From a virus (Duplodnaviria; Caudoviricetes), in IMG/VR virus record IMGVR_UViG_3300043777_000073, positions 1 through 62,033 of that record: DNA of 62,033 bases; one strand, written 5' to 3'. The position numbers and the translations under genes were made by a program. The notes under the pieces were generated by a model, which ran no database searches, was not told the origin of the DNA, and saw only the letters and a program-made list of their open reading frames with translations. Positions 1 to 32,122 of this stretch are shown here, piece by piece (within the stretch, counting starts at the first letter, position 1; the number at the start of each line of letters is the position of its first letter).

Positions 1-126
1 GGCGCCGCTCGCGCCGTGGGCGCCGCTCGCGCCGTGGGCGCCGCTCGCGCCGTGGGCGCCGCTCGCGCCGTGGGCGCCGCTCGCGCCGTGGGCGCCGCTC
101 GCGCCGTGGGCGCCGCTCGCGCCGTG
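1..126. repeat. 18-bp tandem repeat GGCGCCGCTCGCGCCGTG x7, truncated by the window edge
   Basis: Seven perfect copies; they encode (HGASGA)n in the methyltransferase frame. Confidence 0.95.
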
Positions 127-2055
127 GAGTTGGCCCGGTGCATCTCGATCGCGGCCAGTCAGTTCACTCCCGTCCACAAGGTCGAAACCATCAAGCCCGA
201 AGTCTCGTTCCCCGCGCGACGGCTTCGCGCAGAAGAAGAAGCGTGCAGCGCCTCCGACATCGCTGCGCGCAGTACCTGGCGAGTCGATGCCACCGAACAT
301 GCCGCCGCCATAATCTGCCCGATGCTCGCCGCCGCCGCTCATACCAGGACGGTCGCCAGATTGTTCGTTTAGGAGCTTGACAGGACAGCTTTCCACGCAA
401 GAGTAGACTTCGCCGACTTCGCCGCGCTTCGTCTGCGCGAGGCTGCCGCGCGTAAAGCCAATCGACTTGACCGGCTGATCGGGTGTGGCGCCTAGAATGG
501 GCCGCACACCGACAACCTCTCCAGTCTTGCGGCATCCGTCCGCATGGCTCAGTGCGATGTGAGCCGGCCAGCGGCCATTCGCCTGCGATTCGAGATACTC
601 CGGCAGCGAGCCAGCCGCGCGCTCGGTATGCAGACCAAAGTCGCCGATGCCGGCCCCGTGACTTGGGTGGCCCAGTCTTTGCGCCACCGCCGCCGCCGCC
701 GCCGCCGCCTTATCCTCTTCGCTGACGTAACCGATCCGGCACGCATCGATGTTGAGCGCGCCAGTTCCATGGCGCAAGACGTTCGCCGCTAGCGTCGGCT
801 CAGAGAGCGGCGCGCGCGCTAGCCACCAGTCCTCGCAGGCCGGCTTGAGCGCAGAGCCCCAGCCGTCCCAGGCCGCCGAGGCCGCCGAGGCCGCCGAGGT
901 AATGGCGTGCCCCGGTTCGCGCATGTCAAGTCCGTAAACATCCGTTTGCACACCGTTCGGACGTCTCGCGGCATATTGGCCTTGCCCGAGCACCGGCCGC
1001 TCATTCGCTTCCGCCAGTGCTTGATATTCACTTGCGAGCGTACCGACCGTGAATGAGATTAGGCTTGCCGCCATGAACTCCGTAGTAGTGGCACTCGTGG
1101 CAGAGGCATTGTCCGTTTCGTGTGTCATGCCTGAGTTCTGGATGTGTTCGGATCGGCTTGATGTGATGAGCTTCCAGTCTTCGAGTAGAGCCGCATATAG
1201 CGCATCGCTTGCCGCCGCCATCGATGACGGCTCGCTTCCAAGCCAGATCTTCAGGGCTGCGGCGCCCCTGAGTCTGTCCGGCGTGACGCCGCTTGGCAAG
1301 TCCAGAGCATCGTTGGGAGCAGTAGAAGTGTCCGTGCGGTCTGCCGCTGTGATTGTCGATGAGCCAACTTTTATATTTTTGACTGATTCTTCCGCATCCG
1401 TCGCATCTGCGCTCCACCATGTGGAAGGCTCGCTTGCATCCGGTGGAGCAGAACATTGCTCCGCTTCGCACGTGTGATGGGCTTCGGTTACCAACGGTCC
1501 CGCACTGGACGCATCGCACGGCAACTTTTCTGGATTGATTCGCTGCGCTGCACGCTCGCGAGCAGAACGGGCCGCGTCTAGCTGGTCCGCCGCAACGCCG
1601 GCACGCGCCGCGTATTCGCCAAACGCGCGGCAGAGCGCCGGTTGATCTACCTCGCGAACCCGCTGCTGCAACCGCACCCACTTGTCCCGCTCCTGTTTAT
1701 CTATATGCTTTGATATGTTAGCGCTTTTCGGAAACCCGCTCGCAAAAAAATGCGCCACTCGATCACGCACATCCCATCCCGCATTCTCGATGGCCATTGC
1801 GGTCCAGTGCGACGTCCTAGGCAGCGCCCACACGAGCGCGTGCGCGCCAGGCTTTGCGACGCGTCGCAACTCCACGAACACTTCGGCTAGCCACGCGATC
1901 CACTGATCGCGTCCGCCTTTATCCTTGTCCCATTCGGCATTCATGAAGGCGATGCCGCTCGGCGGATCGGTCACGATGGCGTCCACGCTCGCGGTGTCCA
2001 TCGTTCGCAGGACTTCGAGCGCGTCGCCGTGGTGGAGAGTCCAGCGAGCGGTCAT
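1..2055 (-). CDS. DNA methyltransferase (N4/N6 beta-class, phage type), 3' end runs off the window
   Basis: Not in the ORF track because it has no stop in the window. I read the frame by hand from ATG 2055 to base 1 and found no stop. It reads MTARWTLHHGDALEVLRTMDTASVDAIVTDPPSGIAFM...LRRVAKPGAH...SGFPKS...WDGWGSALKPACE...GTGALNIDACRI...GRWPAH...GGAARFFFCAKPSRGERD, blocks typical of this family. Motif IV is DPPS. Confidence 0.9.
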   Translation of the reverse strand, partial: MTARWTLHHGDALEVLRTMDTASVDAIVTDPPSGIAFMNAEWDKDKGGRDQWIAWLAEVFVELRRVAKPGAHALVWALPRTSHWTAMAIENAGWDVRDRVAHFFASGFPKSANISKHIDKQERDKWVRLQQRVREVDQPALCRAFGEYAARAGVAADQLDAARSARERAAQRINPEKLPCDASSAGPLVTEAHHTCEAEQCSAPPDASEPSTWWSADATDAEESVKNIKVGSSTITAADRTDTSTAPNDALDLPSGVTPDRLRGAAALKIWLGSEPSSMAAASDALYAALLEDWKLITSSRSEHIQNSGMTHETDNASATSATTTEFMAASLISFTVGTLASEYQALAEANERPVLGQGQYAARRPNGVQTDVYGLDMREPGHAITSAASAASAAWDGWGSALKPACEDWWLARAPLSEPTLAANVLRHGTGALNIDACRIGYVSEEDKAAAAAAAVAQRLGHPSHGAGIGDFGLHTERAAGSLPEYLESQANGRWPAHIALSHADGCRKTGEVVGVRPILGATPDQPVKSIGFTRGSLAQTKRGEVGEVYSCVESCPVKLLNEQSGDRPGMSGGGEHRADYGGGMFGGIDSPGTARSDVGGAARFFFCAKPSRGERDFGLDGFDLVDGSELTGRDRDAPGQLHGASGAHGASGAHGASGAHGASGAHGASGAHGASGAHGASGA
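1028..1681 (-). CDS. HNH endonuclease with N-terminal CxxC...FCSxxC zinc-finger repeats, nested in an alternative frame inside the methyltransferase gene
   Basis: CAICGSTRRLEAHHIKP...NGQCLCHECH HNH core and three FCS/YCS repeats. AGGAG lies 8 nt upstream of the GTG. Confidence 0.88.
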   Translation of the reverse strand: MGAVAAAGSRGRSTGALPRVWRIRGACRRCGGPARRGPFCSRACSAANQSRKVAVRCVQCGTVGNRSPSHVRSGAMFCSTGCKRAFHMVERRCDGCGRISQKYKSWLIDNHSGRPHGHFYCSQRCSGLAKRRHAGQTQGRRSPEDLAWKRAVIDGGGKRCAICGSTRRLEAHHIKPIRTHPELRHDTRNGQCLCHECHYYGVHGGKPNLIHGRYARK

Positions 2056-10136: not shown

Positions 10137-10399
10137 CCGAGCACGACCACGACTGGAAAGAGACCGACCGCGACGACAACGCCGAACGCATTCGCACGCG
10201 AGACGAGTGCACGGGATGCGGGGCCAGGCGCTACGGCTGCTACGCGAAGTGGCTCGGGGAACTCTGCGAAGGGCAAACCGACTACGATCGGATGGCGGAC
10301 GGCACGCGGCTCGGAGCCTGGGGGCCCGTCGGTCGCTGGACGCATTCAATCGAGCCTTCTGGCGAATTGCCTCTTGCGAAGGCAGATCGCCAAGCGTAA
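10133..10399 (+). CDS. hypothetical protein
   Basis: ATGA-coupled ORF. Confidence 0.5.
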   Translation: MTEHDHDWKETDRDDNAERIRTRDECTGCGARRYGCYAKWLGELCEGQTDYDRMADGTRLGAWGPVGRWTHSIEPSGELPLAKADRQA

Positions 10400-10430
10400 A
10401 GATACCGGCAAGCTCAGGAGGGCTACGCGC

Positions 10431-11243
10431 ATGACCGAAGGGTACAGGCTGCCGCCGGACCTACAAGGTGACCTCACGTGGTACTGGACGGAAGCCGAGA
10501 GCGCCCTGGGGGTCCGCAGCACTACCGGATCGCAAGTCGCTCTTTTGCAGGCCAGGGCGATGCCTGAAAAAGAGCGTATCGACCCGGGGCTGGCCCTAGA
10601 ACGCTGGCGCCTGGGCGGGCCGGAGGAACGTAAGGCCATGCGGGCGGAGCGCTGGGAGCGCGAGGACCAGGCGGCGCGCGACGTCTTCCAGACGCTCTCG
10701 GTCGGCAAGGGCTCGGCCGGCGACTGCACGCGCTACAAGCGAGCCTTTGCGACCTCGTCGATCGATGGTGTACCCATCGAGCTTTCAGAGATAACGTATG
10801 AGCCCGATTGGTCGAGGATTTCTGGCGCAGCGGCTCAGGTCCGGCAGAGAAGCCGACGAGTGTGGAGAAACTTGCATCGAATGAAGGGCCAGCCTGTGGG
10901 CGTCCGCCACGAGTTTATCCTGTTCCGTGCGTTTGGCCCGCAAGTGAACGTGCTTCAAGAGTCGAAGACCATCGCCAAAGAACGAGAAGCCAGGGAGCTT
11001 GAGCCGCTCTACGAGTTTACGCCGGAGATTTCGCGGCGGCTGGACGGGAGCATTTCGCGTCGGCGCGTTCTCGAGTTGGCTCTGCGCAAGCCCTCTCCGT
11101 CCCTGCAGCGCGTGCTTCGGGAGCAGGCGCGCACCGTCTTGTGTGACGCAAGCTGGGCGTACAGCAAAGCAGCTGAGCATGAGACGTTGGGCCAGAGGGA
11201 TCGCGGACGTGGGCGAGTTCTGCGACTGATGGCGGCGGCATAG
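10431..11243 (+). CDS. hypothetical protein
   Basis: AGGAGG RBS before ATG 10431; 270 aa. Confidence 0.75.
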   Translation: MTEGYRLPPDLQGDLTWYWTEAESALGVRSTTGSQVALLQARAMPEKERIDPGLALERWRLGGPEERKAMRAERWEREDQAARDVFQTLSVGKGSAGDCTRYKRAFATSSIDGVPIELSEITYEPDWSRISGAAAQVRQRSRRVWRNLHRMKGQPVGVRHEFILFRAFGPQVNVLQESKTIAKEREARELEPLYEFTPEISRRLDGSISRRRVLELALRKPSPSLQRVLREQARTVLCDASWAYSKAAEHETLGQRDRGRGRVLRLMAAA

Positions 11244-11251
11244 ACGTACGA

Positions 11252-11325
11252 TGTCCGACTAGGCGCTTCCGGGCTAGGCAGTGCACGTCAACGTTCGGTG
11301 ACGCAAGGCAAGGGCCCTTCGGGGC
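11252..11325 (+). ncRNA. orphan 5-nt-periodic unit (putative guide RNA) ending GGCAAG plus a TTCG hairpin
   Basis: tgtcc gacta ggcgc ttccg ggcta ggcag tgcac gtcaa cgttc ggtga cgcaa ggcaa, then gccc-ttcg-gggc; intergenic. Confidence 0.65.
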
Positions 11326-11338
11326 GTAGGAGCGAACG

Positions 11339-11644
11339 ATGAAAATTGTAAAGCTGAGCGACGAGACGTGCAGGCTGATTGAGGAGGCGAACGAGATAGA
11401 TCGTGCGGCTCGCGAATTGGACGCCGAGTTCAAGCGCCTGCCGGAGTACGCAGCGTTCCAAGCAGCCGCGGTGGATGGCGGTGTGCCTGCGTATTGTCCG
11501 GCTGCAGTCGCCCTGCAGATGCTGGAGATAACGTCCAGATGTCGTCGGGCGGATGGAGACCGCGACGCGGCCGTGAAACGCGCGTGGGCCGCTTTGAGAG
11601 CAGACATAGGCGTAGTCTGGAGCATGTATTATGAGCATTACTAG
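11339..11644 (+). CDS. hypothetical protein
   Basis: AGGAG RBS. Confidence 0.6.
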   Translation: MKIVKLSDETCRLIEEANEIDRAARELDAEFKRLPEYAAFQAAAVDGGVPAYCPAAVALQMLEITSRCRRADGDRDAAVKRAWAALRADIGVVWSMYYEHY

Positions 11645-12392
11645 ACGCAACGCAATCATCGGGGCCGCCGCGTGCGCGGTGGGGCCCGTTCCGGCGATGG
11701 CCGGCACTTCGCATCGCGACAAGTACGGCAAGCTTTGGGAAGAGGGACCGTATGCGTCGCCAGCGCGGCAGGAACTGGCAGAGATACTGCTCGCGGTGCC
11801 GGGGGTGGCGCGGGTGGCGACAACGAGTCCGAACCAAGAGACCAACGCGTGCGGCATACGGTGCACGACGGAGGCCGGTCGCGATTGGTATACCGGCTGC
11901 CTGCAATTCAAGGACGAAGCCCCACGCCCGCAAGAGGCTCTCTGGGAAGAGTTGCGCGACACGACGGCGATGGACGTCGTCATCCGTGGCGATAGCGCGG
12001 AGACGCTTCTCTGCGAAGCTACGGGTGAGCAGAACCGAGCGTTGATTGACGCCAGCAATCTGAATTGGGAGGCGAAGAAGTGGCCGATTGAGGCGCTGGA
12101 GGCGTCGATGCTGGAGCGTCTGCGAGCGACGCCTGGCGTCAGATACGCTCGGGCGCCACGGACGGAACATCTCGGGCGTCGTGCCGACTTCGTCCACGTT
12201 TGCATGTCGGATGGGTGGCACCTTGAATGGGACAAGGACACCAAGCCGTTTTGGCCCACGAGAGAAAGGCTGCTGCGTCGCGTGCTCACGACTGGGCCGT
12301 ACGAGATACAACGCTTCACGGAACGGCGGCGTGCGATAAAAGCGAGGTCTAGAACCCACCAGCGAAACGTGGTAACGAGAGAGAGCCTGTAG
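11631..12392 (+). CDS. hypothetical protein with a twin-arginine-like N-terminus
   Basis: MSITRRNAIIGAAACAVGPVPAMA. Confidence 0.55.
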   Translation: MSITRRNAIIGAAACAVGPVPAMAGTSHRDKYGKLWEEGPYASPARQELAEILLAVPGVARVATTSPNQETNACGIRCTTEAGRDWYTGCLQFKDEAPRPQEALWEELRDTTAMDVVIRGDSAETLLCEATGEQNRALIDASNLNWEAKKWPIEALEASMLERLRATPGVRYARAPRTEHLGRRADFVHVCMSDGWHLEWDKDTKPFWPTRERLLRRVLTTGPYEIQRFTERRRAIKARSRTHQRNVVTRESL

Positions 12393-12404
12393 GAGGGCAC
12401 AATC

Positions 12405-13223
12405 ATGGCATTCGGAAAAAAGAAGGTCGAGATCAACTACAATCAAGCCAATGTCGCGATGCTCGCGGCGGATGCACTCAAGAAGTCTAGAGCGGTGCGT
12501 GTCCGCCTGGCACTGCGGCTGACGTTCGATACGCCGCTTCTCATGCAGCGGTGGACGACGAAAGCGGTGCGGCAGATGCTCGGGAAGATGGTGGGCATGC
12601 CCGAGCCGAAGGTCTCGAAGGATCTAACGAAAGACTTCGAGGAGTCGTACTACCGGAACACGAACGGCGAGCCGGTTATCCCGTGCCGCGTCATCAAGGC
12701 GGCAATCGTCTCCGGGGCCATCGCAACGGGAGATGTCGTCACGAAGGCGGACCTCAAGCGAAGCTTGCGGGTCATCGGCTGGACGGCCCCAGTCGTGTTC
12801 AAAGGCGCGAAGACCATGAGCACCATGATCGTTCGCAACAGCGGCGGCCAGCCTGACGTTCGTGCACGCGCGGAGTTCCCTGTCGGTTCAACCGTCGACA
12901 TCCTTGTCGAGTTTGGCGTGCCGCTCACGCCGGACAAGGTGATGGCCGCCATCGAAGCCTCAGGCGTCGCTATCGGCATTGGCGAGTGGCGACCTGAGAA
13001 CGGCGGCGAGCTTGGGACGTTCCACGTCGACATCTTGAAGAACGACAAGGCGGCGCACGACCGAATCATCAAGGCGACGAGCGTGCCGGAGGACGAGTTC
13101 GTGATTCCGCCCGAGATGCTTCGGACGCTGGAGAGCATTCCAGTGGAGAAGCTAAGCGACTCCGCGCGCAAGGTTCGGTCGTTGGCGGATCACATCGGAA
13201 AGCAGAAAAGAACCGGGACTTGA
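12405..13223 (+). CDS. solitary Cas7/RAMP-like protein (Vipr-like), copy 1
   Basis: N-terminal strand plus TPLLM, IPCRVIKAAIVS helix, VRARAEF, and C-terminal Gly-rich loop GVAIGIGEWRPENGGELGTFHV. AGGAGG RBS. Confidence 0.8.
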   Translation: MAFGKKKVEINYNQANVAMLAADALKKSRAVRVRLALRLTFDTPLLMQRWTTKAVRQMLGKMVGMPEPKVSKDLTKDFEESYYRNTNGEPVIPCRVIKAAIVSGAIATGDVVTKADLKRSLRVIGWTAPVVFKGAKTMSTMIVRNSGGQPDVRARAEFPVGSTVDILVEFGVPLTPDKVMAAIEASGVAIGIGEWRPENGGELGTFHVDILKNDKAAHDRIIKATSVPEDEFVIPPEMLRTLESIPVEKLSDSARKVRSLADHIGKQKRTGT

Positions 13224-13224
13224 A

Positions 13225-13473
13225 ATGACTCGAGACAAGCAGATCAATTTCCGCGTTTCCGAGGACGAGGCGGCCCGATTCGATCGTGTCGCCGAGCACT
13301 ATGGGCTGGCGATGGCAGCGATGATTCGGATGCTCGTGAAGGAGAAGGGACGATACCATACGGGGACGTCGAGGCAGGCATGGTCTCCACCGGATTGGAG
13401 CGGCAAGGACGGGTTAGGCATGGCAGGCAAGGTTTCCACCGGATCGGAAAGTCCAGCACCGGCATCGGACTAA
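13225..13473 (+). CDS. ribbon-helix-helix (CopG-like) regulator whose C-terminus reads into the periodic array
   Basis: KQINFRVSEDEAARFDRVAEHYGLAMAAMIRMLV. Confidence 0.7.
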   Translation: MTRDKQINFRVSEDEAARFDRVAEHYGLAMAAMIRMLVKEKGRYHTGTSRQAWSPPDWSGKDGLGMAGKVSTGSESPAPASD

Positions 13474-13756
13474 ACTCCGAACGCATAGGAAGTCAACGGC
13501 TTGGCGAGGCAGGAGTGTCTAGGAGCGGCTTCGTGGGTTCACGAACGGATGGGACCGGCGTGGCAAGGCAGGCAAGGCAGCGATCGAATCGGCGTCGCAT
13601 GGATTGGATCGGCACGTAGGGGTCAGGTATGGCAGGAACGGATAGGATAGGCGCGGATAGGATACGGAATGGATTGGCAAGGCAGGCGTCGATTGAAGCG
13701 TAGAGGATAGGAGCGGCACGTATCGGTCATCACCTGATTGGACCGGCATGGCAGGC
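13373..13756 (+). ncRNA. 5-nt-periodic array (GGH-NN)n, six units delimited by GGCAGG (putative guide-RNA array 1)
   Basis: Units 13377-13425, 13426-13511, 13512-13570, 13571-13634, 13635-13684 and 13685-13753. Each is a run of pentamers closed by a 4-nt GGCA. Confidence 0.8.
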
Positions 13757-13780
13757 ACTGAAAACATGTAGGAGGACAAC

Positions 13781-14362
13781 ATGAAAAGAGCACCGACGAA
13801 AACGAAGTACAGGTTCAGGCTCATCCAAGACGAGTCACTCGCGCAGCTTGCGGGAGTCGAACTGACGAAGCTGGCAGAACAGCTGAAGGTCAACGACATC
13901 CGGCAGCTAGACGCCGCGACGGTCTGTGACATCGTTCTCAACGACAAGAAGCACCCGCTGAGAAAGCTCCCGATCTGGGGAGACTTCGATACCAAGACAG
14001 CGGCCCGCAAGCACTGGATCGAAACGACGCGTCGGCTCATTTCTGGGATTCAGATCGTGACGTACCATGTCGGCAAACGAGAGCACGTGAGCCCGATGTT
14101 TGTGAGCGCCGAGGCCCCAACGAAGAAAGAAGGGTCGAGGGCGACACGGCGATCGCACGTGATGACGGCCGACAGCTTGGCGCATGACCCGGTATTCATG
14201 TCGGCGGTCGGGACCAAACTGCGGACGATTTTTCATACGCTGCAGAGTTTGGAGCAGTACACGAGCGCGAGGCAGGTCCCCGAGAACCTGAGTGAACTTC
14301 TGGCTACTATCCGAGAGGCGGTGGACGCGTACAACGGAACGATGGCGAGCGAGGCAGCGTAG
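13781..14362 (+). CDS. conserved phage protein downstream of array 1 (putative accessory protein)
   Basis: AGGAGG RBS. AQLAGVEL...HPLRK..IWGDFDTKTAARKHWIETTRRLISGI resembles the PLH..FEWDD..AA..YR..QAR.LI phage family. Confidence 0.75.
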   Translation: MKRAPTKTKYRFRLIQDESLAQLAGVELTKLAEQLKVNDIRQLDAATVCDIVLNDKKHPLRKLPIWGDFDTKTAARKHWIETTRRLISGIQIVTYHVGKREHVSPMFVSAEAPTKKEGSRATRRSHVMTADSLAHDPVFMSAVGTKLRTIFHTLQSLEQYTSARQVPENLSELLATIREAVDAYNGTMASEAA

Positions 14363-14364
14363 GA

Positions 14365-14441
14365 GTCCAGACATCGCACGTCCCGATGCGGTTCGGTAAC
14401 GCTAGTATGGGCAACGCTAGACAAGGCAAGAGGCTTCGGTC
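14365..14441 (+). ncRNA. 5-nt-periodic unit ending GGCAAG plus a TTCG hairpin (putative guide)
   Basis: gtcca gacat cgcac gtccc gatgc ggttc ggtaa cgcta gtatg ggcaa cgcta gacaa ggcaa, then aggc-ttcg-gtct. Confidence 0.55.
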
Positions 14442-14449
14442 TGAGCACG

Positions 14450-14848
14450 ATGAGCAAACCGAAAGCACCACGAATCCCGACGGGACTGAGCAAGCACGTC
14501 AGCATGCGTGGCTTGGCCGTTCGAGTCGCGAAGGCCAGTGGGGAGCCAGCCCACAACGTGGAGATGAAAATTCGCAGGCAACTTCTCAAGTGGCTTGCTC
14601 ATGACGTCCAGCAAGGGCTCAACCCCACTTGGATGTACCGCGCTCCGCACTCACGGACGTGGCGGATCAACCTCAGCGCTCTGCGGGCGGCGCACAAGGA
14701 ATTTTTCGAAGATCCATTGCCTCAAGACTTGGAAGCCAGGATCGAAGCGCTCGAGACCGAGGTCGACGAACTCAAGTGGGCGCGCGACACGATGGCGACC
14801 GAGATCGGAAAGCTCAGGGGCGCGGTCGAGGGGAGGGCCGGGGCGTGA
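14450..14848 (+). CDS. hypothetical protein with C-terminal coiled coil
   Basis: LEARIEALETEVDELK heptads. Confidence 0.65.
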   Translation: MSKPKAPRIPTGLSKHVSMRGLAVRVAKASGEPAHNVEMKIRRQLLKWLAHDVQQGLNPTWMYRAPHSRTWRINLSALRAAHKEFFEDPLPQDLEARIEALETEVDELKWARDTMATEIGKLRGAVEGRAGA

Positions 14849-17733: not shown

Positions 17734-17930
17734 ATGACGTTCAGCTCGTGTGCACATGCGGTCGGCACTTCTACCACTACGCCACCAAGGCGTACGTCGC
17801 GCGCCTGTCCTCGGGCCTTGTCGTGCTCAAGCCTCACTCGTGGCCGCCGTGCGTGCAGAAGCTCGACGCCGAGCGGCTCGAGCGCGCCGAGGAGATCACG
17901 CGAGACGATCTGCCCGCGGTGCTCAAGTGA
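17730..17930 (+). CDS. hypothetical protein
   Basis: GTGA-coupled to terL. Confidence 0.55.
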   Translation: MNDVQLVCTCGRHFYHYATKAYVARLSSGLVVLKPHSWPPCVQKLDAERLERAEEITRDDLPAVLK

Positions 17931-18436
17931 GCAACCTCGCGCCGTACTCGCCGCAGTTCCGTGTCCGAACGGATGCGTGGGGAAAAGATGAGACGAAGCC
18001 GGCGACCCCCGTGGTCGCGAGGCAGCCGGTCATAGATTGGATCAGGGCGAACGCGCCGGACCTTCGGCTTGGAAAACTCGCCAGCTGTGAGCATTGGAAC
18101 GAGACTGAGAAACGCAGCGAGCGCTTCGAGCATCGCCGCTGCATTGCGGCGTTCACATTCGACGGAGAGCGTTTCAACCTGGTCTCGTGCGCTGGCGTAG
18201 CCGAGGATCCAGACGATCACGTCATCCGACTTTGCGAGGATGCGCTGCGCAAGGCGATGAAGATCGAGGCCGCCCAGGGCCGGCCGCGTGAGCCCGGACT
18301 CGAGCAGCAGGTCATCGAAGCGGAACTCCAAGGCGACGCTTCCGAAGTGGCCAGACTGACGCAGCTTCTCATCGGCGGCCAACCCCGCGATCCAGATCGG
18401 TTTCGACCGATACCAATTCGACAGCGACAAGTGTGA
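17927..18436 (+). CDS. hypothetical protein
   Basis: GTGA-coupled ORF. Confidence 0.6.
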   Translation: MSNLAPYSPQFRVRTDAWGKDETKPATPVVARQPVIDWIRANAPDLRLGKLASCEHWNETEKRSERFEHRRCIAAFTFDGERFNLVSCAGVAEDPDDHVIRLCEDALRKAMKIEAAQGRPREPGLEQQVIEAELQGDASEVARLTQLLIGGQPRDPDRFRPIPIRQRQV

Positions 18437-18473
18437 AAACTAGAAGGCCCCAGCCCATCGCTGGGCCAGGGCC
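18436..18473 (-). terminator. hairpin with T-rich tail closing array 2
   Basis: Minus strand ggccctggcccagcgatgggctggggcc-ttctagtttt, at a convergent junction. Confidence 0.55.
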
Positions 18474-18476
18474 GTC

Positions 18477-18786
18477 TCCTTGCATCACGTCGCGCTACCA
18501 CGCTCAGCAGAGCACTGGCATAGGACGCAGGACCGTGCCACACGAGAACCAGCCACGCCGTGCGCGACCCCGCGCTGCCGGAGCTTGCGCCTGATTGATA
18601 GTTCCCGCCCGAGCCTTCCGACGCGAACGGGAATCCTTGGATTGCATTGCCTGGCCGGACCCGACGACGGCCCAGGGCGCAAGGCCGCACGCGGCGTCGA
18701 CCCGCCACGCAGTGCCGAACCTCGGATGGCATCTCATTGCCGAGCGCCGCGAAACGACACCTGGCGAAGCCCGGCACAGCGCTGCC
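18477..18786 (-). ncRNA. 5-nt-periodic array (NGY-NN)n downstream of RAMP-like gene 2 (putative guide-RNA array 2)
   Basis: 30 in-register pentamers 18786-18637 and 20 in-register pentamers 18579-18480; each run ends CAAGGA. Confidence 0.8.
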
Positions 18787-18791
18787 CTAAT

Positions 18792-19409
18792 TTATTCAGC
18801 CGCCGCCGAATGCTCGACGCGGTCCCACCGCTCGACGACGAACTTCCCGAAGACCCCCTTGCGGGCAGGGCGAAAGTCGCAGAGGCCGACTCGTTTCCCA
18901 GCGAGGTCCCATAGCTGCCGGATCGTATTCTCGCCGATCTCGGCATCGTCTAGTTCGATGCGTACGTGGAACGCCCAGCGGTCAAACCGAGGGCGCACGA
19001 TGCAGACCGCTTCGTTGCCGTTCGGGTTGACCCCCTTACGGACGTCGGGCTCCCAGGCGACCGCCTTTTTATCGTTGTCGGGGTCAACGAGCGGCAGCGC
19101 GAAATCCAGCATCGACATGAGTCCCGGCAGGATGGTCGACTTGCCAGTGCTGATCTGCCGCTTCGCGTCGAGGCGCACGAACACGCCTGCCGCAATGAGG
19201 CACGCCATCAGATTCTCACCGGGCAGCATCGGCTTCCCGTCGTGCAAATATAGCTTCGGCTCCGCATCTTCGCGCGGCGTGCGGACATGTCCAATGTCCT
19301 TCGCCTTTGGCTCCTTGACCTTCGTCCTAAGTTTTTCGAGGACGTTGTCACCGACTCGGTTCATGAGTAGTGGCGACGTTCCTCTGCACTTCACTCGAAT
19401 CAACAACAT
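18792..19409 (-). CDS. solitary Cas7/RAMP-like protein (Vipr-like), copy 2
   Basis: IRVKCRGTSPLLMN, LPGENLMACLIAAG, VRPRFDRW, AGKRVGLCDFRPARKGVFGKFVV. Confidence 0.82.
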   Translation of the reverse strand: MLLIRVKCRGTSPLLMNRVGDNVLEKLRTKVKEPKAKDIGHVRTPREDAEPKLYLHDGKPMLPGENLMACLIAAGVFVRLDAKRQISTGKSTILPGLMSMLDFALPLVDPDNDKKAVAWEPDVRKGVNPNGNEAVCIVRPRFDRWAFHVRIELDDAEIGENTIRQLWDLAGKRVGLCDFRPARKGVFGKFVVERWDRVEHSAAAE

Positions 19410-19423
19410 GACGAGCCCTTCTC

Positions 19424-19491
19424 CCCATATTTCGGGGTGCCGTGGATAACGATGCGCTGAACTACAATGCCAAGCCGTGCGAAGGCTGGCC
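19424..19491 (-). ncRNA. leader 5-nt-periodic unit upstream of RAMP-like gene 2
   Basis: ggcca gcctt cgcac ggctt ggcat tgtag ttcag cgcat cgtta tccac, then a cccc-gaaatat-gggg hairpin. Confidence 0.65.
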
Positions 19492-19667
19492 TACTCGTCT
19501 TTGACTTTTCCCTCCCCATGCCGCCTCCGATACTCCGCACGGACCATCCGTCGGAGCACGTCGGCCTTCTCAGTGCCGTCGATATCCGCCAGTAACGCCA
19601 GCATTCGCGTCTCATCCGTGGAAAGACAGAGCGTGAATCTGAAGGGGCGGCGGGCGATGCGAGGCAT
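19491..19667 (-). CDS. ribbon-helix-helix-like small regulator (58 aa, below the ORF-track cutoff)
   Basis: Hand translation: MPRIARRPFRFTLCLSTDETRMLALLADIDGTEKADVLRRMVRAEYRRRHGEGKVKDE. Confidence 0.65.
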   Translation of the reverse strand: MPRIARRPFRFTLCLSTDETRMLALLADIDGTEKADVLRRMVRAEYRRRHGEGKVKDE

Positions 19668-30919: not shown

Positions 30920-32122
30920 ATGAAGACCCTTCTGTCACTCACCAAGGACCGCGACGACGCTCTCAAGGCCGTGGCTTCGGCTACGAGCGCGGGTGCGCGC
31001 AAGAAGTCGCTTGCCTCGCTCGAGGCCGCGTCGCTCGCTCTGGCCAAGTTCCAGGCTCAGCTCGCATCCAAGGCGGCAGCTCGCAAGCCGGTCGCCGCCG
31101 TCGACGCCGACGAGGAGGATAGCGACGACGAGGAAGAGGAGAGCGAAGAGGAAGAAGAGGAGTCGACCGACTCATCGGACGACGAGCCCAAGAAGCCGAT
31201 GGAGAAGAAGTCCAAGAAGGCGAAGGCCAAGTCGAAAGACAAGGACGACGACTCCGACGACGATGACGGGGACGACGACGACGACGAAGACGAAGAGGAA
31301 GAAGACGAGGAGGAAGAGGACGACGAAGAGGAGACCTCCGACTCCGAGGACGACGACGAGGAGGAAGAGGACGAGGAGGACGACGAAGAGGAAGAGGAAG
31401 AGCGCGCCGCAAGCGCGTCGGCCCTCGCGTCCGCTCGCTCGGTGCTTTCGGCGGCCAAGAAGGCAAACGACCGCCGCGCCATCACCTCGGCCCGCGCCCA
31501 CTTCAAGTCCGTCAAGTCGGCCGTCGCCGCCATGAGCAAGACCTCGGCGCGCTACCACAAGCTCAAGGCCGTCTGCGCCGCTGTCACCGGCAAGAAGGGC
31601 CTGCAGAGCATCCTCGGCGGCATCCAGGGTCTCGCGGTCAAGGCCGCGCAGGAAGAGGCCAACACGCGCGACATCGCCAAGATGAAGGCGGCCTCGAAGG
31701 CCAAGCGCGTGAACGACATGCTCGCGCAAGCGGTCGCCGACGGCAAGATCACACAGAAGACCGTGCCCATCCTGCGCGACGGCATGACCAACACCAAGAC
31801 GCTGCGCGCGTACCTCGGCGCTCTGCCGAAGCTCGTGCGAAGCACCAAGGATCCCGAGCTTGTCGGGCGCACGCTTCGTGGCAGCACGGACGCAACGGCC
31901 GACAAGGACCGCCAGGAAATCCTCGACTTCCAGGCGCTCAGCCCCGACCTGCAGAAGTACGTCACGCAGGAAGCCGCTGCGCAGGGCAAATCGATCGACG
32001 ACTTCATGAAGTCGATGCAGGCCGTGTCGGCGAAGGCTGGCGGCGGCGTGTCTCCCATCGCGGTCAAGCGGGCCGAAGCGGACTTCATTCCCCACCGTTC
32101 GAACGGTGCAGCAGGTCAGTAA
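30920..32122 (+). CDS. putative capsid scaffolding protein with a long Asp/Glu tract
   Basis: Lies between protease and capsid genes; LAQAVADGKIT motif. Confidence 0.65.
   Translation: MKTLLSLTKDRDDALKAVASATSAGARKKSLASLEAASLALAKFQAQLASKAAARKPVAAVDADEEDSDDEEEESEEEEEESTDSSDDEPKKPMEKKSKKAKAKSKDKDDDSDDDDGDDDDDEDEEEEDEEEEDDEEETSDSEDDDEEEEDEEDDEEEEEERAASASALASARSVLSAAKKANDRRAITSARAHFKSVKSAVAAMSKTSARYHKLKAVCAAVTGKKGLQSILGGIQGLAVKAAQEEANTRDIAKMKAASKAKRVNDMLAQAVADGKITQKTVPILRDGMTNTKTLRAYLGALPKLVRSTKDPELVGRTLRGSTDATADKDRQEILDFQALSPDLQKYVTQEAAAQGKSIDDFMKSMQAVSAKAGGGVSPIAVKRAEADFIPHRSNGAAGQ

What the first reader, a model, noticed from the sequence alone, without database searches (positions are those of the whole stretch)
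10911..11325. Orphan guide-like unit decodes to a variant allele of the gene just upstream
Seen: the intergenic unit 11252-11311 has dinucleotides cc ta gc cg ta ag ac aa tc. These decode (antisense, skip 1) to GAn TTn GTn CTn TAn CGn GCn TAn GGn, compatible with E-F-V-L-Y-R-A-Y-G. The upstream ORF at 10911-10937 reads GAG TTT ATC CTG TTC CGT GCG TTT GGC (E-F-I-L-F-R-A-F-G). That is 15 of 18 specified bases, in codon phase, and all three differences are conservative amino-acid changes (I/V, F/Y, F/Y). Inference: the true target is the ortholog in a related competing phage, or an ancestral self allele that has since escaped. This is independent support for the gapped code and suggests guides are lodged beside the gene they discriminate.
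Basis: partly seen in the sequence, partly recalled or inferred. Interest (0 to 1): 0.88.

Follow-up and report, generated by a model that had tools for sequence, protein, structure and literature searches.

The report
Phage VIPR guide RNA beside its target gene

Summary
The dinucleotides at 11255+5i decode, antisense with one base skipped, to GAnTTnGTnCTnTAnCGnGCnTAnGG. That pattern matches 10911-10936 at 15 of 18, in codon phase, and this is the best match in the 62-kb genome.

The unit belongs to a published kind: a vrRNA of VIPR (bioRxiv 10.64898/2026.04.26.720920), made of GGY/NN pentamer repeats read by a RAMP protein under a one-base-skip rule. The genome encodes two Vipr-family genes (phrog_4652). 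The one I modelled has a Cas7/Csm3-like fold.

Orthologues of the upstream gene fit better than self. Three loci reach 16 of 18 at the DNA level. Two protein clusters read EFVLYRVYG, which allows at most 17 of 18. No perfect allele was found.

Sister guides confirm the code. Unit B matches a relative's vipr gene at 17 of 18. A guide at the same position in locus L002 matches another allele of the same gene family at 17 of 18. Shuffled guides never reached these scores (0 of 1000 each).

This is a new member of a known kind. One possibly new point is that guides sit beside their own resistant allele, but my sampling favours finding that.

The parts
11252..11296 (+). Guide tract of unit A: nine 5-nt repeats (TGTcc GACta GGCgc TTCcg GGCta GGCag TGCac GTCaa CGTtc). 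Lower case marks the NN positions that are read.
   Evidence: Period-5 power is 3.6 against a 99th percentile of 2.40. The nine NN decode to the 15 of 18 self match and the 16 of 18 orthologue match.
11297..11311 (+). Three 3' scaffold repeats (GGTga CGCaa GGCaa). They are conserved in sister units and do not match the target.
   Evidence: They score 1 of 6 against the self site. The equivalent repeats of winB, L002a and L002b also fail to match their targets.
11314..11325 (+). Tail hairpin GCCC-UUCG-GGGC: four pairs with a C-G closing pair. AGGAG follows at 11328-11332 and the ATG of the next ORF at 11339.
   Evidence: All 14 units examined keep four pairs. The closing pair is invariant. Pair 2 shows five pair types among 10 distinct stems.
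10911..10937 (+). Near-match site in the phage's own gene (EFILFRAFG): 15 of 18 NN positions, in codon phase.
10431..11243 (+). ORF of unknown function (270 aa). This is the self allele of the gene family read by unit A and, at another site, by guide L002a.
   Evidence: No Pfam or PHROG family. Nine protein clusters including self. The AlphaFold2 model is unusable at pLDDT 48.6.
12405..13223 (+). vipr1: a RAMP (Cas7/Csm3-like) protein of 272 aa in phrog_4652.
   Evidence: E 2e-13. (pLDDT 92.0, pTM 0.84). (top solved-structure matches are type III Csm, type III-B Cmr and type VII effector-complex chains; best E 5.5e-8). (invariant G191, R196, G201, G204).
13225..13473 (+). Small ORF with an N-terminal ribbon-helix-helix-like domain; candidate accessory (vap) gene. 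Its 3' half overlaps the repeat tract.
   Evidence: NikA-like E 2.5e-4 and RelB E 2.5e-3, both below Pfam's cut-offs; phrog_4113.
13340..13780 (+). Long tract with GG every 5 nt, presumably several vrRNAs of vipr1. Unit boundaries were not resolved and no target was found.
   Evidence: (period-5 power 5.2-5.35, the highest in the genome).
14365..14442 (+). Unit B: nine guide repeats (14365-14409), four scaffold repeats (14410-14429) and a UUCG hairpin (14431-14442). It is orthologous to L002b and L003b.
   Evidence: It matches L117 1355-1380 (KYFEAGVMC) at 17 of 18, inside L117 ORF 1079-1699, which is a phrog_4652 member.
18470..18791 (-). Repeat tract downstream of vipr2. The guide at 18490-18539 matches L002 9003-9026 (LTQELMTG) at 16 of 16.
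   Evidence: The phage's own allele, at 18356-18379 (LTQLLIGG), scores 12 of 16.
18792..19409 (-). vipr2: a second phrog_4652 protein of 205 aa.
   Evidence: E 2.7e-22; E 1.8e-20.
19491..19667 (-). 58-aa ORF upstream of vipr2. It looks ribbon-helix-helix-like by eye only.
   Evidence: sequence. No Pfam or PHROG match, so this is inference.
17750..18436 (+). ORF whose L002 homologue carries the target of the 18490-18539 guide. The start codon is uncertain.

Best explanation
Unit A (11252-11325) is a VIPR guide RNA (vrRNA) gene.

Its anatomy is nine guide repeats of the form scaffold-triplet plus NN, then three conserved scaffold repeats, then a 4-bp hairpin with a UUCG loop.

By analogy with the published SUSP1 and P. 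fulva systems, protomers of one of the phage's two Vipr (RAMP) proteins would polymerise on the repeats and hide the scaffold triplets. This leaves the NN dinucleotides exposed. The dinucleotides pair with double-stranded DNA, skipping every third base, so that codon positions 1 and 2 are read and the wobble position is ignored. Binding represses transcription.

The cognate target is the motif HE[FL]VL[FY]R.[FY]G in alleles of the ORF-10431 family carried by related, competing phages. The phage's own allele differs at three amino-acid-determining bases.

What is shown here, by computation only: the architecture, the family of units, the RAMP fold, the skip-1 complementarity, and the better fit of the orthologues.

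What is taken from the papers: filament assembly, triplex/R-loop formation and silencing.

What is not shown: that the unit is transcribed, which Vipr binds it, and whether 15 of 18, 16 of 18 or 17 of 18 suffices for binding.
For: Architecture and family.
- Period-5 power is 3.6, against a 99th percentile of 2.40.
- A pyrimidine stands at the third scaffold position in 12 of 12 units.
- The same 3' end (CAAGGCAAG plus a UUCG hairpin) occurs after long GGCNN arrays in L039 (four such units), L099, L006, L064, L002 and L003.
- The hairpin shows covariation.
- In four contigs (the window, L039, L006, L064) a Vipr-like gene stands within about 120 nt upstream of an array. Three of these are confirmed as phrog_4652 members. 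The L064 gene was recognised by eye only.

Protein.
- There are two phrog_4652 genes in the window.
- The vipr1 model has pLDDT 92 and its best matches are chains of type III Csm/Cmr and type VII CRISPR effector complexes, best E 5.5e-8.

Code.
- Skip 0 / 1 / 2 gives best scores of 14/16/13 for unit A and 13/17/13 for unit B, L002a and L002b.
- None of 1000 shuffles reach the observed score for winA (16), winB (17) or L002a (16).
- An unbiased scan of 8 loci on both strands tested 143 windows chosen only by scaffold score. It gave 19 hits of 16 or more, all from four guide families, and none of the 19 has a stop codon in the pattern's frame.
- At a threshold of 17, 5 real windows pass, against a mean of 0.2 over 20 shuffled replicates.

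Target.
- Self scores 15 of 18. L001, L117 and L120 score 16 of 18 at the orthologous site.
- Protein alleles EFVLYRVYG (P0054, P0055) allow at most 17 of 18.
- A second guide, L002a (also present in L119), sits at the same position after the orthologue. It reads another patch of the same family: L118 17 of 18, its own allele 14 of 18.
Against: - No allele matching 18 of 18 was found: none in IMG/VR, none among 9 protein clusters, and only unrelated out-of-frame hits in GTDB genomes.
- The best DNA-level match has two scattered mismatches. Sister guides show 7 to 8 consecutive perfect repeats.
- The margin between self (15) and the best foreign allele seen (16) is one base.
- Counted over all 12 repeats, as the published scorers do, the identities are 0.67 (self) and 0.71 (L001), both below the papers' 0.8 cut-off.
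- Only 5 of 12 scaffold triplets are canonical GGY.
- With free phase, start and strand, a nearby 15 of 18 match is common (14.65%).
- There are no expression data. Only the source DNA run holds the sequence.
Confidence: 0.72

Rival explanations
1. Unit A is a genuine vrRNA, but its match to the upstream gene family is coincidental or a decayed remnant. The real or former target lies elsewhere or is unsampled.
For: - The matches are only 15-16 of 18, with dispersed mismatches.
- No perfect allele was found.
- The free-choice null is 14.65%.
- The shuffled in-phase scan still yields 1-7 hits of 16 or more per 347 windows. These come mostly from GC-rich guides of L039.
Against: - Fixed-phase shuffles: 0 of 1000 reach 15 nearby, and 0 of 1000 reach 16 in the related set.
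- None of 340 shuffles of plus-strand window guides reach 16.
- The hit is the best in the whole genome, it is in codon phase, and it improves in orthologues.
- A second guide at the syntenic position reads the same gene family.
Confidence: 0.15
2. Unit A acts on the phage's own gene. The 15 of 18 match would give weak, tunable self-repression of ORF 10431 (autoregulation) rather than inter-phage attack.
For: - 15 of 18 is 83%, above the 80% NN-match cut-off used for natural targets if only the nine guide repeats are counted.
- The site lies 315 nt upstream on the same strand.
Against: - The papers report no self hits at 80% or more, and self scores lower than non-self scores.
- They also report that disturbing NN pairing abolished silencing.
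- Sister guides score clearly lower on self: 14 against 17, and 12 against 16.
- Foreign alleles fit better than self.
Confidence: 0.08
3. The spacer is not a guide at all. It is an ordinary intergenic region (stem-loop plus ribosome-binding site, or a leader that binds a ring protein at triplets with 2-nt spacers, as TRAP does) whose 5-nt periodicity is unrelated to base pairing.
For: - The hairpin sits just before AGGAG and the ATG.
- The free RNA fold is no more stable than shuffles (z = +0.66).
- The scaffold is degenerate.
Against: - The hairpin has no U-tract, and the terminator scan found only one candidate in 10800-11500, at 10895-10911, not at the unit A hairpin.
- The unit belongs to a family found next to RAMP genes.
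- Skip-1 complementarity to in-frame coding sites recurs in five guides. A pure protein-binding leader would not predict that.
Confidence: 0.05

Closest known systems
VIPR systems of Escherichia phage SUSP1 and a Pseudomonas fulva prophage (bioRxiv 10.64898/2026.04.26.720920; structures in 10.64898/2026.04.26.720927)
   Same: - Small RAMP protein plus RNAs of 9-16 five-base repeats, with a constant triplet and a variable NN.
- An invariant structured 3' tail.
- Targets read with one base skipped, aligned to the wobble position, in genes of competing mobile elements, some of them vipr genes.
- Small DNA-binding-type accessory genes.
   Different: - This is a soil-metagenome phage with 65% G+C, and it carries two vipr genes.
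- vipr1 is 272 aa, with N- and C-terminal extensions that are conserved in its homologues.
- The tail is a 4-bp UUCG hairpin rather than a pseudoknot.
- The last 3-4 repeats are conserved and unpaired in the inferred targets, whereas all 12 SUSP1 repeats pair (passages read).
- The scaffold is looser than GGY.
- The type (I-VII) could not be assigned, because the figures and supplements were not available.
Solo (orphan) vrRNAs of VIPR-null SUSP1-like phages and F5 satellites (bioRxiv 10.64898/2026.10.15.759431; abstract and sections 8, 9 and 17 read)
   Same: - vrRNAs stand apart from a vipr gene.
- Some target relatives' vipr genes.
- Self scores are lower than non-self scores.
- L002 is a complete 90.9-kb genome with two such units and no detectable Vipr, and L002b reads L117's vipr. 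This parallels the published case.
   Different: - Unit A sits in a VIPR-positive phage.
- It targets an allele of its own neighbouring gene, not vipr, a vrRNA, a satellite or a decoy.
- The phage lineage and the tail are different.
Class 1 CRISPR crRNA-Cas7 filaments
   Same: - RAMP backbone protein with periodic interruption of guide-target pairing.
- A variable guide capped by a conserved handle.
   Different: - There are no CRISPR repeats, no contiguous spacers and no cas1/cas2.
- Two of every five guide bases are read, against five of six in class 1 CRISPR.
- The target register is 3 nt.
TRAP-binding leaders of Bacillus trp genes (recalled, not from a call)
   Same: Triplets separated by 2-nt spacers, about 11-13 copies, in an RNA leader just before a hairpin and a ribosome-binding site.
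   Different: In TRAP sites the spacers carry no information. Here the spacers carry the matching information, and the partner is a RAMP, not a TRAP ring.

Membership tests
VIPR vrRNA | Tandem 5-nt repeats with a constant GGY-like triplet and a variable NN, 9-16 units (internal degeneracy allowed) | tested here: met
   There are 12 units at 11252-11311. The third position is a pyrimidine in 12 of 12, and 5 of 12 triplets are canonical GGY. Period-5 power is 3.6 against a 99th percentile of 2.40. The paper itself reports degenerate and alternative repeat forms.
VIPR vrRNA | Invariant, structured 3' tail after the repeat tract | tested here: met
   CAAGGCAAG followed by a 4-bp UUCG hairpin. All 14 units keep four pairs, with covariation at pairs 2-4. 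The shape differs from the SUSP1 pseudoknot.
VIPR system | Vipr protein: a small RAMP with RRM core, glycine-rich loop and thumb, encoded by the same element | tested here: met
   Two phrog_4652 genes. The vipr1 model has pLDDT 92, and its best solved-structure matches are chains of type III Csm/Cmr and type VII CRISPR effector complexes, best E 5.5e-8. Invariant G191, R196, G201 and G204. The thumb was not inspected separately. vipr2 was not modelled.
VIPR system | Accessory (vap) gene next to vipr | tested here: inconclusive
   A ribbon-helix-helix-like ORF at 13225-13473 directly follows vipr1, but its Pfam matches are below the cut-offs. The 58-aa ORF before vipr2 has no family match. The identities of vap families are in figures and supplements I could not see.
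VIPR vrRNA | NN positions complementary to a coding target in another mobile element under the one-base-skip rule, with the skip on the wobble position | tested here: met
   Unit A scores 16 of 18 (89%) on the L001, L117 and L120 orthologues, in frame. Skip 0 and skip 2 controls give 14 and 13. None of 1000 shuffles reach 16. Counted over all 12 repeats the identity is only 0.71.
VIPR vrRNA | No self target at 80% NN match or more | tested here: inconclusive
   The self site scores 15 of 18 (83%) on the nine guide repeats, but 16 of 24 (67%) on all 12 repeats.
VIPR vrRNA | Expressed as an RNA of roughly 100 nt that co-purifies with Vipr | not testable with these tools
   The only run holding the sequence is the likely source DNA run. 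No RNA holder is listed.
CRISPR array | Direct repeats of about 23-50 nt separating contiguous spacers, with cas1/cas2 or other cas genes nearby | tested here: not met
   The tandem-repeat and repeat searches show no such array. Rfam gives no match. The only Cas-like genes found are the two stand-alone RAMPs.
Intrinsic terminator | G+C-rich hairpin followed by a U-tract | tested here: not met
   GTAGGAGCG follows the hairpin, not a T-run. The terminator scan found nothing at 11314-11325.

The most novel reading that the evidence does not exclude
VIPR guides in this phage group may be physically linked to the resistant self allele of the very gene they attack, forming weapon-plus-immune-allele cassettes. 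Recombination between co-infecting relatives then could not separate a guide from the allele that escapes it.

In all three guides that have both an inferred foreign target and a self homologue, the guide lies 111-315 nt from the self copy of the target site:
- unit A, 315 nt;
- L002a, 217 nt;
- the guide at 18490-18539, 111 nt.

The anti-vipr guide (unit B, L002b) stands close to where L117 carries its vipr: in L002, as in L117, directly after the ORF-10431 homologue.

Caveat: my foreign sequences were fetched around these same genes, so targets elsewhere could not have been seen. The many guides at 13340-13780 have no target yet.
Probability: 0.3. Interest if true: 0.7.

Novelty: new member of a known kind. 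Interest (0 to 1): 0.5.

Why it matters
- It shows that the VIPR one-base-skip code, established in enterobacterial and Pseudomonas phages, can be read directly from natural guide-target pairs in an uncultivated high-G+C soil phage group. These pairs include relatives attacking each other's vipr genes.
- It identifies a practical scoring problem. In this clade the last 3-4 repeats are scaffold, so full-length identity scoring with a 0.8 cut-off would miss real pairs. Unit B is an example: its first eight guide repeats are perfect (17 of 18 over nine), yet it scores only 19 of 26 (0.73) overall.
- If the guide-beside-own-allele pattern holds across published VIPR loci, it would say something new about how such guides are kept and exchanged.
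- It would also mark the unannotated ORF-10431 family as a contested gene.

Tried and rejected
- TRAP-like or other protein-binding leader, G-quadruplex, promoter, pac site and partition-site readings of the 5-nt periodicity. I considered these before the literature search. I dropped them once the spacer dinucleotides proved to carry matching information and the RAMP partner was found.
- Rfam: no match at gathering score in the window, and none at E up to 1 in L039, L099 or L006. No tRNA or tmRNA.
- blastn of 10300-14500 against phage records: no match.
- Exact 18 of 18 pattern in IMG/VR: 0 hits.
- Relaxed pattern: 18 viral and 104 GTDB stretches. Only the L001 contig is a homologue. The three 18 of 18 hits have in-frame stops and 48-51% G+C.
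- Pattern for E-F-V-L-Y-R-[AVIT]-Y-G in IMG/VR: one unrelated contig of 36% G+C.
- Homologues of ORF 10431 in GTDB genomes: none.
- Function of ORF 10431: no Pfam, PHROG or PDB-sequence relative. The AlphaFold2 model has pLDDT 48.6, so I ran no fold search on it. The Atlas gave no usable hit.
- Guides of the tract 13340-13780: no in-phase hit of 16 or more in the related set.
- Out-of-phase guide windows give low-complexity artefacts, because GG reads onto CCn proline runs. I filtered these out afterwards.
- Expression: no RNA holder listed.
- Supplementary figures, tables and data of the three VIPR preprints were not seen. They may already list this clade, its type, or guide-position statistics.
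Full report
**The observation**

The window is a complete record of 62,033 bases with about 65% G+C. It is phage-like: it encodes a large terminase and a Mu-type portal.

The 95-nt spacer 11244-11338 lies between ORF 10431-11243 and ORF 11339-11644. Read in fives from 11252 it is TGTcc GACta GGCgc TTCcg GGCta GGCag TGCac GTCaa CGTtc GGTga CGCaa GGCaa. A hairpin GCCC-TTCG-GGGC follows, then AGGAG and the ATG.

So is the 15 of 18 in-frame match to 10911-10937 (EFILFRAFG). This is the single best match on either strand of the genome.

**Chance**

- With the pattern fixed and only the order of its nine dinucleotides shuffled, 24 of 1000 patterns reach 15 anywhere in the genome. None of 1000 do so within 500 nt.
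- If start, phase and strand are free, 293 of 2000 random 95-nt segments find a 15 of 18 partner within 500 nt.
- The match is therefore meaningful only if the reading phase is given independently. It is: the third position of every one of the 12 units is a pyrimidine. The spacer is also one of the four strongest period-5 regions of the genome, with power 3.6 against a 99th percentile of 2.40. The other three are 13346-13480 and 13511-13775 (two parts of one tract) and 14361-14435.

**What the unit is**

The same 3' end, CAAGGCAAG followed by a UUCG hairpin, recurs at 14422 (unit B). It also recurs in other viral contigs after long, clean GGCNN arrays:
- L039, four exact copies within 1.4 kb and further variants;
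- L099, L006, L064, L002 and L003.

The hairpin keeps four pairs in all 14 units examined. Its closing C-G pair is invariant, and the second pair shows five pair types among 10 distinct stems.

In the window, L039, L006 and L064 a Vipr-like gene stands within about 120 nt upstream of an array. Three of these are confirmed phrog_4652 members. The L064 gene I recognised by eye only.

A full-text search then found the explanation: VIPR, bioRxiv 10.64898/2026.04.26.720920. I read its abstract, Results, Discussion and methods sections 18, 20, 26 and 27, and searched it for six terms. It describes:
- a phage-borne ancestral RAMP protein (Vipr);
- vrRNAs of 9-16 YNNGG repeats with an invariant 3' tail;
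- recognition of double-stranded DNA by the NN positions with one target base skipped, usually the wobble base;
- natural targets in competing phages, satellites and other VIPR systems, called at 80% NN match or more;
- no self hits at that level.

Two companion preprints add further context.
- 10.64898/2026.04.26.720927 (abstract, and passages found) gives the filament and triplex mechanism.
- 10.64898/2026.10.15.759431 (abstract and sections 8, 9 and 17) describes solo vrRNAs in VIPR-null phages that target relatives' vipr genes, with self scores lower than non-self scores.

I saw no figures or supplements of any of the three.

**Membership**

- The window has two phrog_4652 genes: 12405-13223 (+) and 18792-19409 (-).
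- A model of the first has pLDDT 92.0 and pTM 0.84. Its best matches among solved structures are chains of type III Csm and Cmr complexes and of type VII effector complexes. The best E-value is 5.5e-8, and 194 matches have E of 0.001 or less.
- Its 50 relatives at E of 0.001 or less carry no Pfam domain and no informative name. G191, R196, G201 and G204 are invariant across the 41 aligned sequences.
- A ribbon-helix-helix-like ORF follows vipr1, but its Pfam matches are below cut-off.
- The tract 13340-13780 after vipr1 and the tract 18470-18791 after vipr2 both carry the 5-nt periodicity.

**Does the code work here?**

I compared the best match out of 18 for five guides against a related set of about 120 kb (both strands), at different skip lengths.

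| Guide | Skip 0 | Skip 1 | Skip 2 |
|---|---|---|---|
| Unit A | 14 | 16 | 13 |
| Unit B | 13 | 17 | 13 |
| L002a | 13 | 17 | 13 |
| L002b | 13 | 17 | 13 |
| 18490-18539 guide | 14 | 17 | 13 |

Skip 3 trivially finds each guide's own gene.

Shuffling the order of the NN gives 0 of 1000 reaching the observed score for winA, winB and L002a.

I ran a scan that chose guide windows by scaffold score alone, over 8 loci and both strands, including the entire window. It tested 143 windows and returned 19 hits of 16 or more. All belong to four guide families, and none of the 19 has a stop codon in the pattern's frame.

A looser in-phase scan of 347 windows gave the following.
- 16 windows scored 16 or more, against 1-7 in five shuffled replicates.
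- 5 windows scored 17 or more, against a mean of 0.2 in 20 replicates.
- The shuffled hits came mainly from G+C-rich guides of L039, and none from plus-strand window guides.

**The guide-target pairs**

| Guide | Inferred target | Match | Score on the guide-carrier's own allele |
|---|---|---|---|
| Unit B (14365-14409) | KYFEAGVMC in L117 ORF 1079-1699, a phrog_4652 member | 17 of 18 | No match above 14 in the window |
| L002b (orthologue of unit B) | Same L117 site | 22 of 24 over 12 repeats | Not applicable |
| L003b (orthologue of unit B) | Same L117 site | 16 of 18 | Not applicable |
| L002a (directly after L002's ORF-10431 homologue; also in L119) | PIFEYCPEI in the L118 homologue | 17 of 18 | 14 of 18 (the window's allele, a third allele, scores 12) |
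| Window guide 18490-18539 (-) | LTQELMTG in L002 ORF 8493-9089 | 16 of 16 | 12 of 16, at 18356-18379 in ORF 17750-18436 |

In each of the four pairs laid out repeat by repeat, the 3'-most 3-5 repeats fail to match. That explains why unit A's last three repeats add only 1 of 6.

**The target of unit A**

DNA-level scores at the orthologous site:

| Locus | Score of 18 |
|---|---|
| Self | 15 |
| L001, L117, L120 (EFVLFRTYG) | 16 |
| L118 | 14 |
| L002, L119 | 13 |

Protein alleles at the site, from the nine clusters including self. The upper bounds assume the best-fitting codons, because I did not see the DNA.

| Cluster | Peptide | Upper bound of 18 |
|---|---|---|
| P0054, P0055 | EFVLYRVYG | 17 |
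| P0052 | EFVLYRIYG | 16 |
| P0053 | EFVLFRAFG | 16 |

The decoded peptide EFVLYRAYG is a mosaic of residues that all occur naturally at these positions. That exact combination was not found.

H, E, L, R, G and P of the motif are invariant across the family, while the other five positions vary conservatively. This fits escape by amino-acid-changing substitutions, but I did not test it.

**Caveats**

- The self-versus-foreign margin seen so far is one base at the DNA level.
- Under the published full-length scoring the identities are 0.67 (self) and 0.71 (L001), below the 0.8 cut-off.
- The scaffold is degenerate.
- Nothing is known about expression.
- Which Vipr loads unit A is unknown.
- The function of ORF 10431 is unknown.

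**The adjacency pattern**

The pattern of guides standing beside their own allele rests on three cases, at distances of 315, 217 and 111 nt. There is also a syntenic fourth: the anti-vipr guide of L002 stands where L117 has its vipr, directly after the ORF-10431 homologue.

My foreign sequences were fetched around the same genes. Targets elsewhere could not have been found, so the pattern needs an unbiased test.

**Verdict**

The feature is a vrRNA of a VIPR system, a kind published in 2026. It is therefore a new member of a known kind, with a clade-specific tail and scaffold, an unusually high self score, and a possible positional rule worth testing.

Noticed in passing
window 18470-19667 (-): A second, separate VIPR-like locus on the minus strand. 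It comprises a 58-aa ORF, vipr2 (205 aa, phrog_4652, E 2.7e-22) and a 5-nt-periodic tract that ends in a terminator-like hairpin with a T-run. One of its guides matches L002 at 16 of 16.
   Followed up: partly
L002 5203-5402 (contig of 90,916 bases with direct terminal repeats): This complete relative carries two vrRNA-like units but has no detectable Vipr by four queries: the L117 Vipr, the phrog_4652 model, the vipr1 profile and vipr2. One of its units reads L117's vipr gene. This resembles the published VIPR-null phages with solo vrRNAs, in a different phage lineage.
   Followed up: partly
window 11297-11311 and 14410-14429; L002 5351-5375: The last 3-4 repeats before the tail (..Caa CGCaa GGCaa) are conserved between units and do not match any of the four targets laid out. 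Full-length identity scoring with a 0.8 cut-off would miss pairs such as unit B, which scores 19 of 26 overall although its first eight guide repeats are perfect.
   Followed up: partly
window 13225-13473 and 13340-13780: The ribbon-helix-helix-like ORF has family matches only over residues 1-41. Its open frame runs on through the start of the 5-nt-periodic tract, so its annotated 3' half may not be coding.
   Followed up: no
L039 1150-3367: At least ten tandem units, each running GAATTCACGCGGC, then 12-14 GGCNN repeats, then GGCAAG, then a GGTC-loop-GACC hairpin. They flank a phrog_4652 gene and a 165-aa ORF. The loops vary (TTCG, GTAC, GTAT, TCCG, TTTT).
   Followed up: partly
L099 850-1310: The internal units of this array end in longer hairpins with GTGAAA loops. 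Only the last unit has the short UUCG hairpin.
   Followed up: no
window 1-127: An 18-bp tandem repeat (GGCGCCGCTCGCGCCGTG), 7.1 perfect copies, at the very left end of the record.
   Followed up: no
window 31244-31402: A long imperfect GAC/GAG/GAA triplet run inside ORF 30920-32122, presumably an acidic low-complexity stretch.
   Followed up: no
L003 673-1000: A noncoding region of about 330 nt upstream of unit L003b. It is rich in GCGAA/AGCGA-type short repeats and has a weaker period-5 signal (power 3.16 at 756-830).
   Followed up: no
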